DNA from: Escherichia coli
GTDB lineage: Bacteria; Pseudomonadota; Gammaproteobacteria; Enterobacterales; Enterobacteriaceae
Direction: 5' to 3' (one strand)
DNA: 64,000 bases
NCBI RefSeq assembly: GCF_003334765.1
Contig: NZ_QOWT01000003.1
The position numbers are program-made. Below are positions 16,201-19,200 of this stretch, one piece after another (within the stretch, counting starts at the first letter, position 1; every line of letters begins with the position of its first letter).

Positions 16201-19200
16201 GTCAATACCCACCTGAATGATGCTAAGCCCGATAGAAGTAATAACCACACCGGTAACCAGTGGCGGGAATAAAGGCATCAAGCGACCGATAAGTGGCGCT
16301 AATAATGTGGTGATAAAACCCGCGGCGATAGTGGCACCAAATATCCCCAGCAGGCCGATATCCGGGTTCATCCCAATGGCTATCATTGGTGTTACAGCAG
16401 CAAAGGTCACCGACATAATCACCGGCAGGCGGATCCCCATAAAGCGGCCGATACCGATACATTGCAATAATGTGACGATCCCGCAGCAAAAGAGATCCGA
16501 GCTAATGAGCATCGCAATAGCTTCTTTTGAGAGGCCCAGTCGGTCACCAATCATAAGAGGAACAGCGACTGCACCTGCGTACATGACAAGGACGTGTTGC
16601 AGACCGAGTATGATCAGCTTTCCTGGTGATAATATGCGGTCAACCTCATCAGTTGGGCGGTCTTGCCCAGAAGATGAGGGAAGTTGGGAATCTATGGCGC
16701 TCATCAGTGTTTCTCCTTTCGCCCGCCAGAGTAAAAAGCAACCGTTTACGTTAATGAAACTGTCTAAACACATGCTCGTGGAGTGCCAGTTTTTGCGAGG
16801 AAGGGGAGTTAGAGACAGGAATTGCGGAGGCAATCACATAATCGTGGTTAAACCACGAAAATGAGAAGAGAACCTGACAATGGAATTATCTGTAATTTTC
16901 TCATATTGATATTTCATTAATCATTCTGGCATGTCGCACTCTCGCATTTAATCGTTTTTATCTGGATAGCGCTCTTTTGATCGGCAATGTTGAAATAATG
17001 AAAGCGGCATAGATTGAGGGGCAATAATTTGAACTCAGTCGCAAAATTATAATTAAAACGGTCATGCTACCTAATATATGCCCGTTTATTGCATCGCGAA
17101 ATTTGAGAAGACATAACTCATTAAATGAAAGGGATGCAAATGAATAAGTTTATTGCTGCTGAAGCTGCGGAATGTATAGGCTGTCATGCTTGTGAAATTG
17201 CCTGTGCGGTGGCACACAATCAAGAAAACTGGCCGCTGAGTCACAGTGACTTTCGACCGCGTATCCACGTTGTAGGGAAAGGCCAGGCTGCGAATCTGGT
17301 GGCCTGCCATCACTGCAACAATGCCCCTTGCGTTACGGCTTGTCCGGTTAATGCTCTGACTTTCCAGTCCGATAGCGTACAACTGGACGAGCAAAAATGT
17401 ATTGGTTGTAAAAGATGCGCAATCGCTTGCCCCTTTGGCGTCGTTGAGATGGTCGATACGATTGCGCAGAAATGCGACCTTTGTAACCAGCGCAGTTCCG
17501 GCACGCAAGCCTGTATTGAAGTTTGCCCAACACAGGCGTTACGACTGATGGACGATAAAGGGTTGCAGCAGATAAAGGTGGCCCGCCAGCGCAAAACGGC
17601 AGCAGGAAAAGCGTCATCAGACGCTCAGCCATCTCGCAGTGCAGCGTTGCTCCCCGTTAACTCGCGTAAAGGCGCAGATAAAATTTCAGCGAGTGAACGG
17701 AAAACCCACTTTGGCGAAATATATTGCGGGCTGGATCCACAACAAGCGACTTATGAGAGTGACCGCTGTGTTTATTGTGCCGAAAAAGCTAACTGCAACT
17801 GGCATTGCCCGCTGCATAACGCTATTCCGGATTACATCCGTCTGGTACAGGAAGGAAAGATTATTGAAGCGGCAGAACTTTGCCACCAGACCAGTTCCTT
17901 ACCAGAAATTTGCGGCAGGGTATGTCCACAGGACCGTCTTTGTGAAGGCGCATGTACTTTGAAAGATCACTCGGGCGCAGTCTCTATCGGTAATCTGGAA
18001 CGCTACATCACCGATACCGCGCTGGCGATGGGCTGGCGTCCCGATGTCAGCAAAGTTGTTCCCCGTAGCGAAAAAGTGGCGGTGATTGGCGCTGGGCCTG
18101 CAGGGTTAGGGTGTGCTGATATTCTGGCGCGCGCAGGAGTTCAGGTCGATGTCTTTGATCGCCATCCAGAAATTGGCGGTATGCTGACTTTTGGCATTCC
18201 TCCTTTCAAACTCGATAAAACGGTATTAAGCCAGCGGCGAGAGATATTCACCGCAATGGGAATCGACTTTCATCTTAACTGTGAAATTGGCCGCGATATT
18301 ACCTTTAGCGATTTAACTTCTGAATATGATGCAGTTTTCATCGGCGTGGGGACTTACGGGATGATGCGAGCAGATCTGCCGCATGAAGATGCGCCCGGTG
18401 TCATTCAGGCTCTACCGTTCCTGACTGCCCATACCCGCCAGCTCATGGGATTGCCGGAGTCTGAAGAGTATCCGCTGACGGACGTGGAAGGTAAGCGAGT
18501 CGTGGTATTGGGCGGTGGCGATACGACAATGGATTGTTTGCGGACTTCCATCCGCCTCAATGCCGCCAGCGTGACCTGCGCGTATCGTCGTGATGAAGTC
18601 AGTATGCCGGGCTCGCGCAAAGAGGTGGTTAATGCGCGCGAGGAAGGTGTCGAGTTTCAGTTCAATGTTCAACCGCAATATATCGCTTGTGACGAAGATG
18701 GGCGTTTAACTGCGGTGGGCCTGATTCGTACCGCCATGGGTGAGCCGGGGCCGGATGGTCGCCGTCGTCCTCGTCCGGTAGCGGGTTCAGAGTTTGAATT
18801 GCCCGCCGATGTTCTGATTATGGCCTTTGGTTTCCAGGCGCATGCCATGCCGTGGTTGCAGGGCAGCGGAATTAAACTCGATAAATGGGGCCTGATTCAA
18901 ACCGGTGACGTCGGGTATTTACCTACCCAGACGCATCTGAAAAAAGTCTTTGCTGGTGGTGATGCAGTTCATGGCGCGGATCTGGTTGTCACTGCAATGG
19001 CCGCAGGAAGGCAGGCGGCGCGCGATATGTTAACTCTGTTTGATACGAAGGCATCGTGATGAAATCGTTAATTATCGTTAATCCGGCTGACTGTATTGGC
19101 TGCCGTACTTGTGAAGTAGCCTGTGTGGTCGCTCACCCTTCAGAACAGGAGTTGAATGCCGATGTCTTTTTACCCCGGCTGAAGGTACAGCGACTGGACA

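What the first reader, a model, noticed from the sequence alone, without database searches (positions are those of the whole stretch)
16892..16912. 15-bp motif shared by two divergent promoter regions of the purine-catabolism cluster
gtaattTTCTCATATTGATATttcatta in the uacT/ygfT intergenic region (16892-16912) recurs as gtaaTTCTCATATTGATATagaaatg in the ygeW/ygeV intergenic region (42112-42130). That is an exact 15-mer plus a flanking gtaa, on the same strand, each about 150-230 bp upstream of a plus-strand gene. A partial third copy (CTCATATTGATA, minus strand, 47935-47946) lies upstream of xdhA. Recurrence in promoter regions of one functional cluster suggests a common regulator binding site.
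Basis: seen in the sequence. Interest (0 to 1): 0.55.

Follow-up and report, generated by a model that had tools for sequence, protein, structure and literature searches.

The report
YgeV enhancer sites of purine-catabolism operons
The repeated 15-base word is very probably the DNA site where the sigma-54 activator YgeV binds to switch on the E. coli uric-acid and purine breakdown operons, a site not previously described for E. coli but matching one predicted for the related regulator DioR in clostridia.

Summary
TTCTCATATTGATAT occurs exactly at 16898-16912 and 42116-42130, and its 12-base core occurs on the minus strand at 47935-47946.

An exact 15-mer repeat alone is chance-level: about eight unrelated pairs occur in the window. 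The context makes it significant.
- The word is two mismatches from the palindrome TTATCA-N3-TGATAA.
- That palindrome is the upstream activating sequence predicted in 2019 for the clostridial enhancer-binding protein DioR.
- DioR controls the same genes: dpaL, ygeW-ygfK-ssnA-ygeY, yqeB and xdhABC.
- A matrix built only from the published clostridial sites ranks 32268, 42116 and 16898 as the top three of 64,000 window positions.
- Each lies 105-210 bp upstream of a sigma-54 promoter bound in published ChIP-seq (ygfT, ygfK, ygeW, xdhA).
- The sites are almost invariant in six E. coli lineages.
- They recur in the orthologous spacers of Buttiauxella, an Endozoicomonas-like genome and several Firmicutes, always next to a ygeV orthologue with the recognition helix GIGIATLYRK.

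Best reading: these are YgeV (IsrR) enhancer sites. Binding itself is untested. I rate it a new member of a known kind, of moderate interest.

The parts
16898..16912 (.). Enhancer (UAS) site TTCTCATATTGATAT in the uacT/ygfT spacer. Its centre is 174 bp upstream of the ygfT sigma-54 promoter and 118 bp from a candidate uacT promoter.
   Evidence: Exact match. 18.0 bits, rank 3 of 64,000 with the clostridial DioR matrix. Invariant in 6 E. coli lineages.
16918..16932 (.). Possible weak second site TAATCATTCTGGCAT, with a good left half only, 20 bp from site 1.
   Evidence: 4 mismatches to the consensus. The 20-bp spacing resembles the paired sites at xdhA and in Buttiauxella. Inference only.
17077..17093 (+). 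Sigma-54 promoter of ygfT-ygfS, TATGCCCGTTTATTGCA, with a non-canonical -24 element.
   Evidence: Sigma-54 ChIP-seq site OS32 (PMC4591121). Located. The same TGC/CGC -24 element with TTGCAT at -12 is conserved in Buttiauxella and L089.
16773..16788 (-). Candidate sigma-54 promoter of uacT, TGGCACTCCACGAGCA. It rests on sequence only.
   Evidence: Not listed among sigma-54 ChIP-seq sites. uacT belongs to the YgeV iModulon (PMC12133099).
32268..32282 (.). Enhancer site TTATCATTATGATAA, a perfect palindrome, 177 bp upstream of the ygfK promoter.
   Evidence: The only exact match to the consensus in the window. Rank 1, 21.0 bits. Invariant in 6 lineages.
32084..32100 (-). Sigma-54 promoter of ygfK-ssnA-ygfM-xdhD, GTGGTGCGATTGTTGCT.
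   Evidence: ChIP-seq site OS31 (PMC4591121)..
42087..42101 (.). Enhancer site TCTTCAGTTTGATAA in the ygeW/ygeV spacer, 180 bp from the ygeW promoter.
   Evidence: 2 mismatches. One tolerated polymorphism at position 3. An equivalent distal site is present in Buttiauxella and L089.
42116..42130 (.). Enhancer site TTCTCATATTGATAT, 209 bp from the ygeW promoter and 155 bp upstream of the ygeV ATG.
   Evidence: rank 2; invariant. Buttiauxella has TTCTCAATGTGATAT at the equivalent place, identical at all 12 specified positions.
41900..41916 (-). Sigma-54 promoter of ygeW-dpaL-ygeY-hyuA-arcC, CTGGCACACTTATTGTT, with TTGTT at -12.
   Evidence: ChIP-seq site OS30 (PMC4591121). RpoN genomic-SELEX peak in this spacer (PMC8743547). 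TGGCAY-N5-TTGTT is conserved in four genera.
47934..47948 (.). Enhancer site GTATCAATATGAGTG (minus strand CACTCATATTGATAC), 106 bp from the xdhA promoter.
   Evidence: Invariant in 6 lineages. It is weak against the symmetric consensus (4 mismatches) but shares the 12-base core of the 15-mer.
47955..47969 (.). Enhancer site AAATCAATGTGATAA, 127 bp from the xdhA promoter and 21 bp from the previous site.
   Evidence: 2 mismatches. 9.7 bits, rank 15. Invariant.
47821..47837 (-). Sigma-54 promoter of xdhABC, CTGGCGTAAATCTTGCC.
   Evidence: ChIP-seq site OS29 (PMC4591121)..
42285..44063 (+). [quoted passage not shown]
   Evidence: Pfam PF13188, PF00158, PF25601, PF02954. Walker A GESGTGKE at residue 300 and GAFTGA at residue 347. 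Recognition helix GIGIATLYRK is shared with orthologues that carry the motif.
33658..33672 (.). Possible extra site TTCTCAATGTGAGAA inside the 3' end of yqeC, 160 bp upstream of the yqeB ATG.
   Evidence: Rank 4, 18.0 bits. No sigma-54 promoter was found downstream. yqeB is a DioR target in clostridia. Status uncertain.

Best explanation
The 15-mer is an upstream activating sequence (enhancer) for YgeV, also called IsrR. [quoted passage not shown]

Proposed mechanism:
- A YgeV dimer recognises the imperfect inverted repeat TT(A/C)TCA-N3-TGA(T/G)A(A/T) through its C-terminal Fis-type helix-turn-helix, whose recognition helix is GIGIATLYRK.
- One or two such sites lie 105-210 bp upstream of each of four sigma-54 promoters: ygfT-ygfS, ygfK-ssnA-ygfM-xdhD, ygeW-dpaL-ygeY-hyuA-arcC and xdhABC.
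- On activation, presumably by a purine or uric-acid-related signal under anaerobiosis, the bound protein would assemble into the AAA+ ring, loop the DNA and remodel the closed sigma-54 holoenzyme complex.
- This would co-induce the reductive uric-acid and purine pathway.

Shown here or in the literature: the sites, their enrichment and conservation, the sigma-54 occupancy of the four promoters, co-expression of these operons, and co-occurrence of the motif with ygeV orthologues across phyla.

Inferred: that YgeV is the protein that binds, the dimer and hexamer stoichiometry, and the inducing signal.

The site in the uacT/ygfT spacer may also serve a divergent uacT promoter. The pair next to ygeV may autoregulate ygeV. 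Both are inferences.
For: 1. Independent matrix. Nie et al. 2019 (PMC6615313, Table S3) predicted UAS sites for the clostridial EBP group DioR. Its targets are dpaL-pyrC, ygeW-ygfK-ssnA-ygeY, yqeB, pbuX and xdhABC. A matrix built from 22 of those sites and scanned over the E. coli window puts 32268, 42116 and 16898 at ranks 1-3 of 64,000 positions.

2. Enrichment. Five sites within 2 mismatches fall in four spacers, against 0.20 expected; 0 of 5000 shuffles reached this. Background is 3 hits of 18 bits or more in 1.13 Mb of unrelated loci. There were no exact consensus matches in 78 other loci.

3. Promoters. All four partner promoters are sigma-54 ChIP-seq sites OS29-OS32 (PMC4591121). Distances from site centre to the -24 element are 106-209 bp. 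The published range for clostridial EBPs is 100-250 bp.

4. Regulon match. The YgeV iModulon contains xdhABC, ygeWXY-hyuA, ygfK-ssnA-ygfM-xdhD, ygfT and uacT. ygfT expression is reported to be reduced in a ygeV mutant (PMC10602906 and PMC12133099).

5. Conservation within E. coli. In six lineages, 1 of 90 site columns varies against 104 of 1560 other spacer columns.

6. Orthologous clusters. These carry the motif upstream of sigma-54 promoters next to the regulator gene:
- Buttiauxella selenatireducens (YgeV 53% identical), a metagenomic relative (51%) and an Endozoicomonas-like genome (45%).
- Sedimentibacter and Clostridium thailandense.
- Two further loci, L092 and L094. L094 has 58% G+C and three hits above 21 bits.

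7. Recognition helix. GIGIATLYRK is shared by the regulators at the motif-bearing loci. The exceptions are L089 (GIGVATLYRK) and the Citrobacter paralogue L003 (GISIATLYRK, half-sites only). Paralogues with other helices lack the motif. One paralogue with GIGLSTLYRK has TTGTCA-N3-TGACAA instead.
Against: - No experiment shows YgeV bound to these sequences. I found no EMSA, footprint or ChIP for YgeV in the searchable literature.
- The two exact copies are only a 10-of-12 match to the symmetric consensus.
- The xdhA-proximal copy is weak: 4 mismatches.
- ygfK and ygfT each have a single clear site, whereas EBPs often use two or more.
- One locus with the same recognition helix (L093, a short contig) showed no strong site.
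- The uacT candidate promoter is not among the ChIP-seq sites.
- The matrix is A+T-rich, so weak hits in A+T-rich DNA are uninformative.
Confidence: 0.85

Rival explanations
1. Chance recurrence of an A+T-rich 15-mer in A+T-rich spacers, with no function.
For: Exact repeats of 15 bases or more are common in this window; about eight other unrelated pairs occur. The spacers have 37-40% G+C.
Against: - An independent clostridial matrix ranks the sites 1-3 of 64,000.
- No shuffle of 5000 reproduced the enrichment.
- The sites are conserved within E. coli.
- The same motif sits in orthologous spacers in other genera and phyla, including a genome with 58% G+C.
Confidence: 0.02
2. The motif is bound by a different transcription factor that happens to be co-conserved with the cluster, not by YgeV. 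Candidates would be a Fur-like, CRP-family or purine-responsive repressor.
For: - The half-sites TGATAA/TTATCA resemble Fur hexamers. The ygfK site matches 13 of 19 positions of the Fur box.
- CRP-like and PurR-like boxes do exist in the same spacers.
- No binding data exist for YgeV.
Against: - Fur-box matches are at background level: 29 window positions reach 13 of 19, and the two 15-mer copies reach only 10 of 19.
- The CRP-like and PurR-like boxes are separate sequences.
- The motif tracks the presence of a ygeV/dioR orthologue and a sigma-54 promoter from Enterobacteriaceae to Clostridia.
- It covaries with the regulator's recognition helix.
- Its position, 100-210 bp upstream of the -24 element, is typical of an enhancer rather than of a repressor operator.
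Confidence: 0.08
3. The sites act mainly as operators or promoter elements for the plus-strand genes the reader pointed to. Under this reading they would be a sigma-70 promoter or autoregulatory operator of ygeV, rather than enhancers of sigma-54 promoters.
For: - Site 2 lies 155 bp upstream of the ygeV ATG.
- In Buttiauxella and L089 the equivalent pair lies within about 100 bp of the regulator's start.
- EBPs such as PspF autoregulate through their own enhancer sites (general knowledge).
Against: - The sigma-70 consensus scan found no promoter-like site overlapping either copy.
- The same motif occurs upstream of ygfK and xdhA, where there is no regulator gene.
- All four spacers contain ChIP-verified sigma-54 promoters at enhancer distance.
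- Autoregulation could coexist with the enhancer role, so this is a complement rather than a replacement.
Confidence: 0.05

Closest known systems
DioR upstream activating sequence of Clostridiales (Nie, Dong and Yang 2019, BMC Genomics, PMC6615313)
   Same: - Same core, TT(A/C)TCA-N3-TGA(T/G)AA.
- Same position, 100-250 bp upstream of a sigma-54 promoter.
- Same target genes: dpaL, ygeW, ygfK, ssnA, ygeY, yqeB and xdhABC.
- The regulator has the same architecture and is 36-37% identical, with the same recognition helix.
- C. difficile variants such as TTCTCGTATTGATAA are within 2 bases of the E. coli 15-mer.
   Different: - The DioR motif is itself only a computational prediction.
- Its regulon was labelled 'function unknown', and a 2024 paper still calls the protein uncharacterised (PMC11448449).
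- It was described only for Clostridiales. E. coli YgeV was not linked to it in any paper I could search.
- Clostridial sites usually come as pairs 15-19 bp apart. The E. coli pairs are 21 and 29 bp apart, and two promoters have one clear site.
Enhancer sites of classical E. coli sigma-54 activators: NtrC at glnAp2, PspF at pspA, FhlA, NorR, ZraR
   Same: [quoted passage not shown]
- Located about 100-200 bp upstream of a -24/-12 promoter.
- The regulator gene lies adjacent and often divergent.
- Activation is by DNA looping (general knowledge; review PMC7057263 listed).
   Different: - The sequence is different: NtrC uses TGCACC-N5-GGTGCA and FhlA/NifA use TGT-N10-ACA.
- No IHF site was identified here.
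- CRP-like boxes lie between enhancer and promoter at ygfK and ygeW.
Fur box (GATAATGATAATCATTATC)
   Same: A+T-rich sequence containing GATAA/TTATC hexamers. The ygfK palindrome would score weakly in a Fur scan.
   Different: - The half-sites have the opposite arrangement, TTATCA-N3-TGATAA against TGATAAT-N-ATTATCA.
- Matches are at background level.
- There is no link to iron genes.

Membership tests
Upstream activating sequence of a sigma-54 enhancer-binding protein | Lies roughly 80-250 bp upstream of a sigma-54 (-24/-12) promoter. | tested here: met
   Site centres lie 106-209 bp from the -24 GG of four promoters. All four are sigma-54 ChIP-seq sites OS29-OS32 (PMC4591121).
Upstream activating sequence of a sigma-54 enhancer-binding protein | Dyad symmetry suited to a dimeric helix-turn-helix protein. 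| tested here: met
   The consensus TTATCA-N3-TGATAA is a palindrome. The site at 32268 is perfect. The two 15-mer copies match 10 of 12 positions.
Upstream activating sequence of a sigma-54 enhancer-binding protein | A gene for an enhancer-binding protein (AAA+ domain with GAFTGA, plus a DNA-binding domain) in the neighbourhood. | tested here: met
   ygeV lies at 42285-44063. It carries PF00158 and PF02954, with GESGTGKE and GAFTGA present.
Upstream activating sequence of a sigma-54 enhancer-binding protein | Multiple or tandem sites per promoter that support oligomerisation. | tested here: inconclusive
   There are pairs at ygeW (29 bp apart) and xdhA (21 bp apart). ygfK has a single clear site. 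ygfT has one clear site plus a weak half-site 20 bp away.
Upstream activating sequence of a sigma-54 enhancer-binding protein | Specific binding by the activator, and activator-dependent transcription that is lost when the site is mutated. | not testable with these tools
   No binding data were found. The only indirect evidence is the iModulon and the reported drop in ygfT expression in a ygeV mutant (PMC10602906).
DioR/YgeV regulon motif (Nie et al. 2019) | Matches the published DioR site matrix above background. | tested here: met
   Ranks 1-3 of 64,000 positions, at 18-21 bits. Background is 3 hits of 18 bits or more per 1.13 Mb.
DioR/YgeV regulon motif (Nie et al. 2019) | The regulator is an orthologue of DioR, with the same architecture, gene neighbourhood and DNA-reading helix. 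| tested here: met
   Full-length homologues 36-37% identical sit in the same gene cluster in Sedimentibacter and C. thailandense, with the helix GIGIATLYRK. I could not compare directly with CBO2889 or CD2092 because those sequences were not fetched.
DioR/YgeV regulon motif (Nie et al. 2019) | Same target genes. | tested here: met
   dpaL, ygeW, ygeY, ygfK, ssnA and xdh genes lie downstream of the sites both in E. coli and in the published regulon.
DioR/YgeV regulon motif (Nie et al. 2019) | Conserved in orthologous spacers of related genomes. | tested here: met
   Six E. coli lineages. Buttiauxella, L089 and an Endozoicomonas-like genome. L004, L008, L092 and L094.
Fur box | At least about 14 of 19 matches to GATAATGATAATCATTATC. 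| tested here: not met
   The best match is 13 of 19, at the ygfK site. The 15-mer copies reach 10 of 19. In the window, 29 positions reach 13.

The most novel reading that the evidence does not exclude
Regulator and DNA sites have travelled together. The whole unit would consist of the activator, its TTATCA-N3-TGATAA enhancers, and sigma-54 promoters that include the odd TTGTT -12 element of ygeW and the GG-less -24 element of ygfT. On this reading it has been kept as a single transferable regulon from Clostridia to Enterobacteriaceae.

Two further points belong to this reading:
- The single site in the uacT/ygfT spacer works as a bidirectional enhancer for two divergent sigma-54 promoters.
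- The pair beside ygeV doubles as an autoregulatory operator.

This would give a directly testable model for how gut E. coli senses uric acid.
Probability: 0.3. Interest if true: 0.55.

Novelty: new member of a known kind. Interest (0 to 1): 0.45.

Why it matters
YgeV (IsrR) is one of the few E. coli sigma-54 activators with no known DNA site or signal. The operons it appears to control encode the recently recognised anaerobic uric-acid degradation pathway of gut bacteria, which bears on host urate levels and gout.

A defined 15-bp site at four ChIP-verified sigma-54 promoters has three uses:
- It turns the statistically inferred 'YgeV iModulon' into a concrete regulon that can be mutated.
- It links E. 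coli to the clostridial DioR prediction.
- It gives engineers of urate-degrading probiotic strains the native control elements. One published strain replaced part of the ygeV/ygeW spacer.

In kind it remains an ordinary enhancer-binding-protein site.

Tried and rejected
- **Peptide scan of genome contigs with YgeV.** It did, by luck, return the Firmicute clusters that gave the lead.
- **The search for homologous proteins with YgeV.** All 120 listed hits were 99-100% identical; every hit that carried a source name was E. coli. The search was useless for orthologues.
- **Footprinting within E. coli over the uacT/ygfT spacer alone.** Identity is 97.8-100%, which gives little power. I pooled four spacers from six lineages instead.
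- **Known-factor guesses from memory.** I considered FNR, NarL 7-2-7, IHF, CpxR, ModE, Nac and ArgR. None fitted on inspection and I did not pursue them. Fur was tested and rejected.
- **Mobile-element or duplication origin.** Similarity does not extend beyond the 15 bases.
- **Canonical GG-N10-GC promoter for ygfT.** None was found. The answer came from the ChIP-seq table: a GG-less -24 element.
- **Papers not held.** Iwadate and Kato 2019 and Reitzer and Schneider 2001 could not be read. The statement about ygfT in a ygeV mutant is therefore second-hand, from PMC10602906.
- **Literature search for 'DioR'.** It returned only unrelated image-analysis papers.
- **NCBIfam.** It has no curated family for YgeV. 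All hits are below cut-off and come through the AAA+ domain.
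Full report
**Observation**

The window is E. coli chromosome and is K-12-like; the 551-bp stretch 16650-17200 is 100% identical to a K-12 strain. It runs from gcvP to the ETT2 island.

TTCTCATATTGATAT is exact at 16898-16912 and at 42116-42130, both on the plus strand. The 12-mer CTCATATTGATA recurs on the minus strand at 47935-47946.

- The first copy lies in the uacT/ygfT spacer, 228 bp before the ygfT ATG.
- The second lies in the ygeW/ygeV spacer, 155 bp before the ygeV ATG.
- The third lies 168 bp before the xdhA ATG.

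An exact 15-mer pair is not remarkable by itself. The window holds about eight other unrelated direct pairs of 15 bases or more, besides REP elements.

**How the identity emerged**

A peptide scan for YgeV relatives was swamped by generic AAA+ patterns. It did return full-length homologues, 36-37% identical, from Firmicutes. These sit in the same gene cluster (dpaL, ygeW, ygeY, ygfK, arcC, ssnA, xdh, a purine permease) in Sedimentibacter hydroxybenzoicus (L004) and Clostridium thailandense (L008).

In both, a textbook sigma-54 promoter is preceded by three copies of TTATCA-N3-TGATAA, 110-290 bp upstream. Two of the three are 19 bp apart. The promoters are TGGCACAAGTTTTGCT in L004 and TGGCATAAAAATTGCT in L008.

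The E. coli 15-mer is two mismatches from this palindrome. A perfect copy, TTATCATTATGATAA, sits upstream of ygfK at 32268-32282. Among 81 loci then held, exact consensus matches occurred only in the E. coli, L004 and L008 clusters.

**Literature**

- Nie et al. [quoted passage not shown] They defined an enhancer-binding-protein group, DioR, of 'unknown' function. [quoted passage not shown]
- Their Table S3 lists predicted sites such as ATTTATCATAATGATAAGG, TATTATCATTTTGATAATA and, in C. difficile, AATTCTCGTATTGATAAAA. These lie 100-250 bp upstream of TTGGCAT-N5-TTGCT.
- A 2024 C. difficile paper still calls DioR an uncharacterised enhancer-binding protein (PMC11448449).
- For E. coli, YgeV (renamed IsrR) is described as a putative sigma-54 activator with no binding site given (PMC9426417).
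- The 'YgeV iModulon' contains xdhABC, ygeWXY-hyuA, ygfK-ssnA-ygfM-xdhD, ygfT and uacT. ygfT expression is reported to fall in a ygeV mutant (PMC10602906 and PMC12133099).
- I found no paper giving a YgeV site or linking YgeV to DioR.

**Independent test**

I built a symmetrised weight matrix from 22 published clostridial DioR sites only and scanned the 64-kb window.

| Rank | Position | Location | Score (bits) |
|---|---|---|---|
| 1 | 32268 | upstream of ygfK | 21.0 |
| 2 | 42116 | ygeW/ygeV spacer | 18.0 |
| 3 | 16898 | uacT/ygfT spacer | 18.0 |
| 4 | 33658 | palindrome inside yqeC, within the cluster | 18.0 |
| 15 | 47955 | upstream of xdhA | 9.7 |

Against the simple consensus, five sites within two mismatches fall in the four spacers (1.65 kb), where 0.20 are expected; 0 of 5000 dinucleotide shuffles reached this. 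In 1.13 Mb of unrelated loci only three positions reach 18 bits.

**Partner promoters**

Published sigma-54 ChIP-seq lists bound sites upstream of four genes (PMC4591121):

| ChIP-seq site | Gene | Sequence | Window position |
|---|---|---|---|
| OS29 | xdhA | CTGGCGTAAATCTTGCC | 47821-47837 (-) |
| OS30 | ygeW | CTGGCACACTTATTGTT | 41900-41916 (-) |
| OS31 | ygfK | GTGGTGCGATTGTTGCT | 32084-32100 (-) |
| OS32 | ygfT | TATGCCCGTTTATTGCA | 17077-17093 (+) |

The window positions were located. Site centres lie at these distances from the -24 element:

- ygfT: 174 bp
- ygfK: 177 bp
- ygeW: 180 and 209 bp
- xdhA: 106 and 127 bp

Site 2 serves the minus-strand ygeW operon.

A good-looking uacT promoter, TGGCACTCCACGAGCA at 16788 to 16773, lies 118 bp on the other side of site 1. 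It is not in the ChIP-seq table and remains a candidate.

**Conservation**

- **Six E. coli lineages.** I compared K-12, O157:H7, Nissle, O170:H18 and two clinical strains. One of 90 site columns varies, against 104 of 1560 other spacer columns. Both copies of the 15-mer are invariant.
- **Closest non-E. coli orthologues.** A search of 50%-identity representatives found three: Buttiauxella selenatireducens (53% identical), a metagenomic relative (51%) and an Endozoicomonas-like genome (45%).
- **Buttiauxella, ygeW/ygeV spacer.** It carries CGCTCAAAATGATAA and TTCTCAATGTGATAT. The latter is identical to the E. coli 15-mer at all 12 specified positions.
- **Buttiauxella, other spacers.** The xdhAB/ygfT spacer carries TTATCAAACTGATAA between two divergent promoters. 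The ygfK spacer carries two sites 20 bp apart.
- **Unusual promoter features.** ygeW promoters read TGGCAY-N5-TTGTT in four genera. ygfT promoters lack the first G of the -24 GG in three genera.
- **Prediction test.** I looked up four further regulators. Two with the helix GIGIATLYRK sit next to purine genes and have strong paired sites: L092, and L094 with 58% G+C and three hits above 21 bits upstream of TGGCACTGGTTTTGCT. One short contig showed nothing. One regulator with GIGLSTLYRK has TTGTCA-N3-TGACAA sites instead.
- **Paralogues.** Those with other helices lack the motif.

**Mechanism**

[quoted passage not shown] The AAA+ domain carries GESGTGKE at residue 300 and GAFTGA at residue 347.

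The best-supported reading is that YgeV dimers bind these imperfect palindromes. They would then assemble into the active ring, loop the DNA and open the four sigma-54 promoters, co-inducing the reductive uric-acid and purine pathway.

- Shown: the sites, sigma-54 occupancy, co-expression, and conservation together with the regulator.
- Inferred: binding, stoichiometry and the inducing signal.

**Rivals**

- **Chance** is excluded by the independent matrix and the cross-phylum conservation.
- **A Fur-like site** is excluded by background-level Fur-box matches.
- **Another co-conserved factor** cannot be fully excluded without binding data, but would not explain the covariation with the recognition helix.
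- **A role as ygeV operator** may coexist with the enhancer role. The sigma-70 consensus scans gave nothing overlapping the sites.

**Verdict**

This is a real regulatory element. It is the E. coli counterpart of a motif predicted for clostridial DioR, and as far as I could find it has not been described for YgeV.

It is a new member of a known kind, a sigma-54 enhancer site. Interest is moderate: it gives an orphan regulator of a medically topical pathway a concrete and testable regulon.

Noticed in passing
window 33658-33672: The perfect palindrome TTCTCAATGTGAGAA lies inside the 3' end of yqeC, 160 bp upstream of the yqeB ATG. It is the fourth-best hit of the DioR matrix (18.0 bits). yqeB is a predicted DioR target in clostridia, but I found no sigma-54 promoter between the site and yqeB.
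   Followed up: partly
window 32163-32178 and 41959-41974: There are two CRP-like boxes: TGTGAATGAACTCACA with perfect half-sites, and TGTGGGGTTGATCACA with one mismatch. Each lies between the enhancer site and the sigma-54 promoter, at ygfK and ygeW respectively. A preprint mentions a native Crp site in the ygeV/ygeW spacer (10.1101/2025.05.19.654654).
   Followed up: partly
window 42007-42022: A PurR-box-like sequence, ACGAAAACGTTTGGCT, reads AGCCAAACGTTTTCGT on the minus strand. That is 2 mismatches to the consensus ACGCAAACGTTTTCNT, which I recalled from memory. It is the only hit of that quality in the 64-kb window and is invariant in six E. coli lineages. It lies between the ygeW promoter and the enhancer sites.
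   Followed up: partly
window 16773-16788 (minus strand): TGGCACTCCACGAGCA is a good sigma-54 promoter candidate. It lies 69 bp upstream of the uacT start and 118 bp from enhancer site 1. It is absent from the published sigma-54 ChIP-seq list although uacT is in the YgeV iModulon.
   Followed up: partly
window 41900-41916 and 17077-17093; L088, L089, L091: Two non-canonical sigma-54 promoter elements are conserved across genera. ygeW promoters have TTGTT instead of TTGC at -12 in four genera. ygfT promoters lack the first G of the -24 GG in three genera.
   Followed up: partly
L095 2832-2934 (regulator P0136): A YgeV-family paralogue has the recognition helix GIGLSTLYRK instead of GIGIATLYRK. 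It has TTGTCA-N3-TGACAA-type sites upstream of a sigma-54 promoter (3070-3085). This hints at a helix-to-base specificity code.
   Followed up: partly
L003 9690-9990 (Citrobacter werkmanii): A YgeV paralogue, 38% identical with helix GISIATLYRK, is divergent from dpaL-like and ygeY-like genes. The spacer has a TGGTAA-N5-TTGCT promoter. It also has several TGATAA/TTATCA half-sites at spacings other than 3.
   Followed up: partly
window 35465-35660: The window carries about 181 extra bases in the yqeB/arcC spacer compared with strain HSP425. They coincide with a direct repeat of a REP-like unit (copies at 35465 and 35645).
   Followed up: partly
window 15205-15219 and 16728-16742: Another exact 15-mer pair, AGAGTAAAAAGCAAC, brackets uacT. 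One copy is in its 5' leader and the other is inside the small gene yqfG just downstream. It is probably chance.
   Followed up: no
uacT/ygfT region in strains 23CRST028, 200112 (H3, H4, H9): Some E. coli genomes carry an IS1A insertion at the uacT/ygfT locus. In strain 23CRST028 it splits uacT. In O157:H7 strain F8798, ygfS is annotated as a pseudogene with an internal stop.
   Followed up: no
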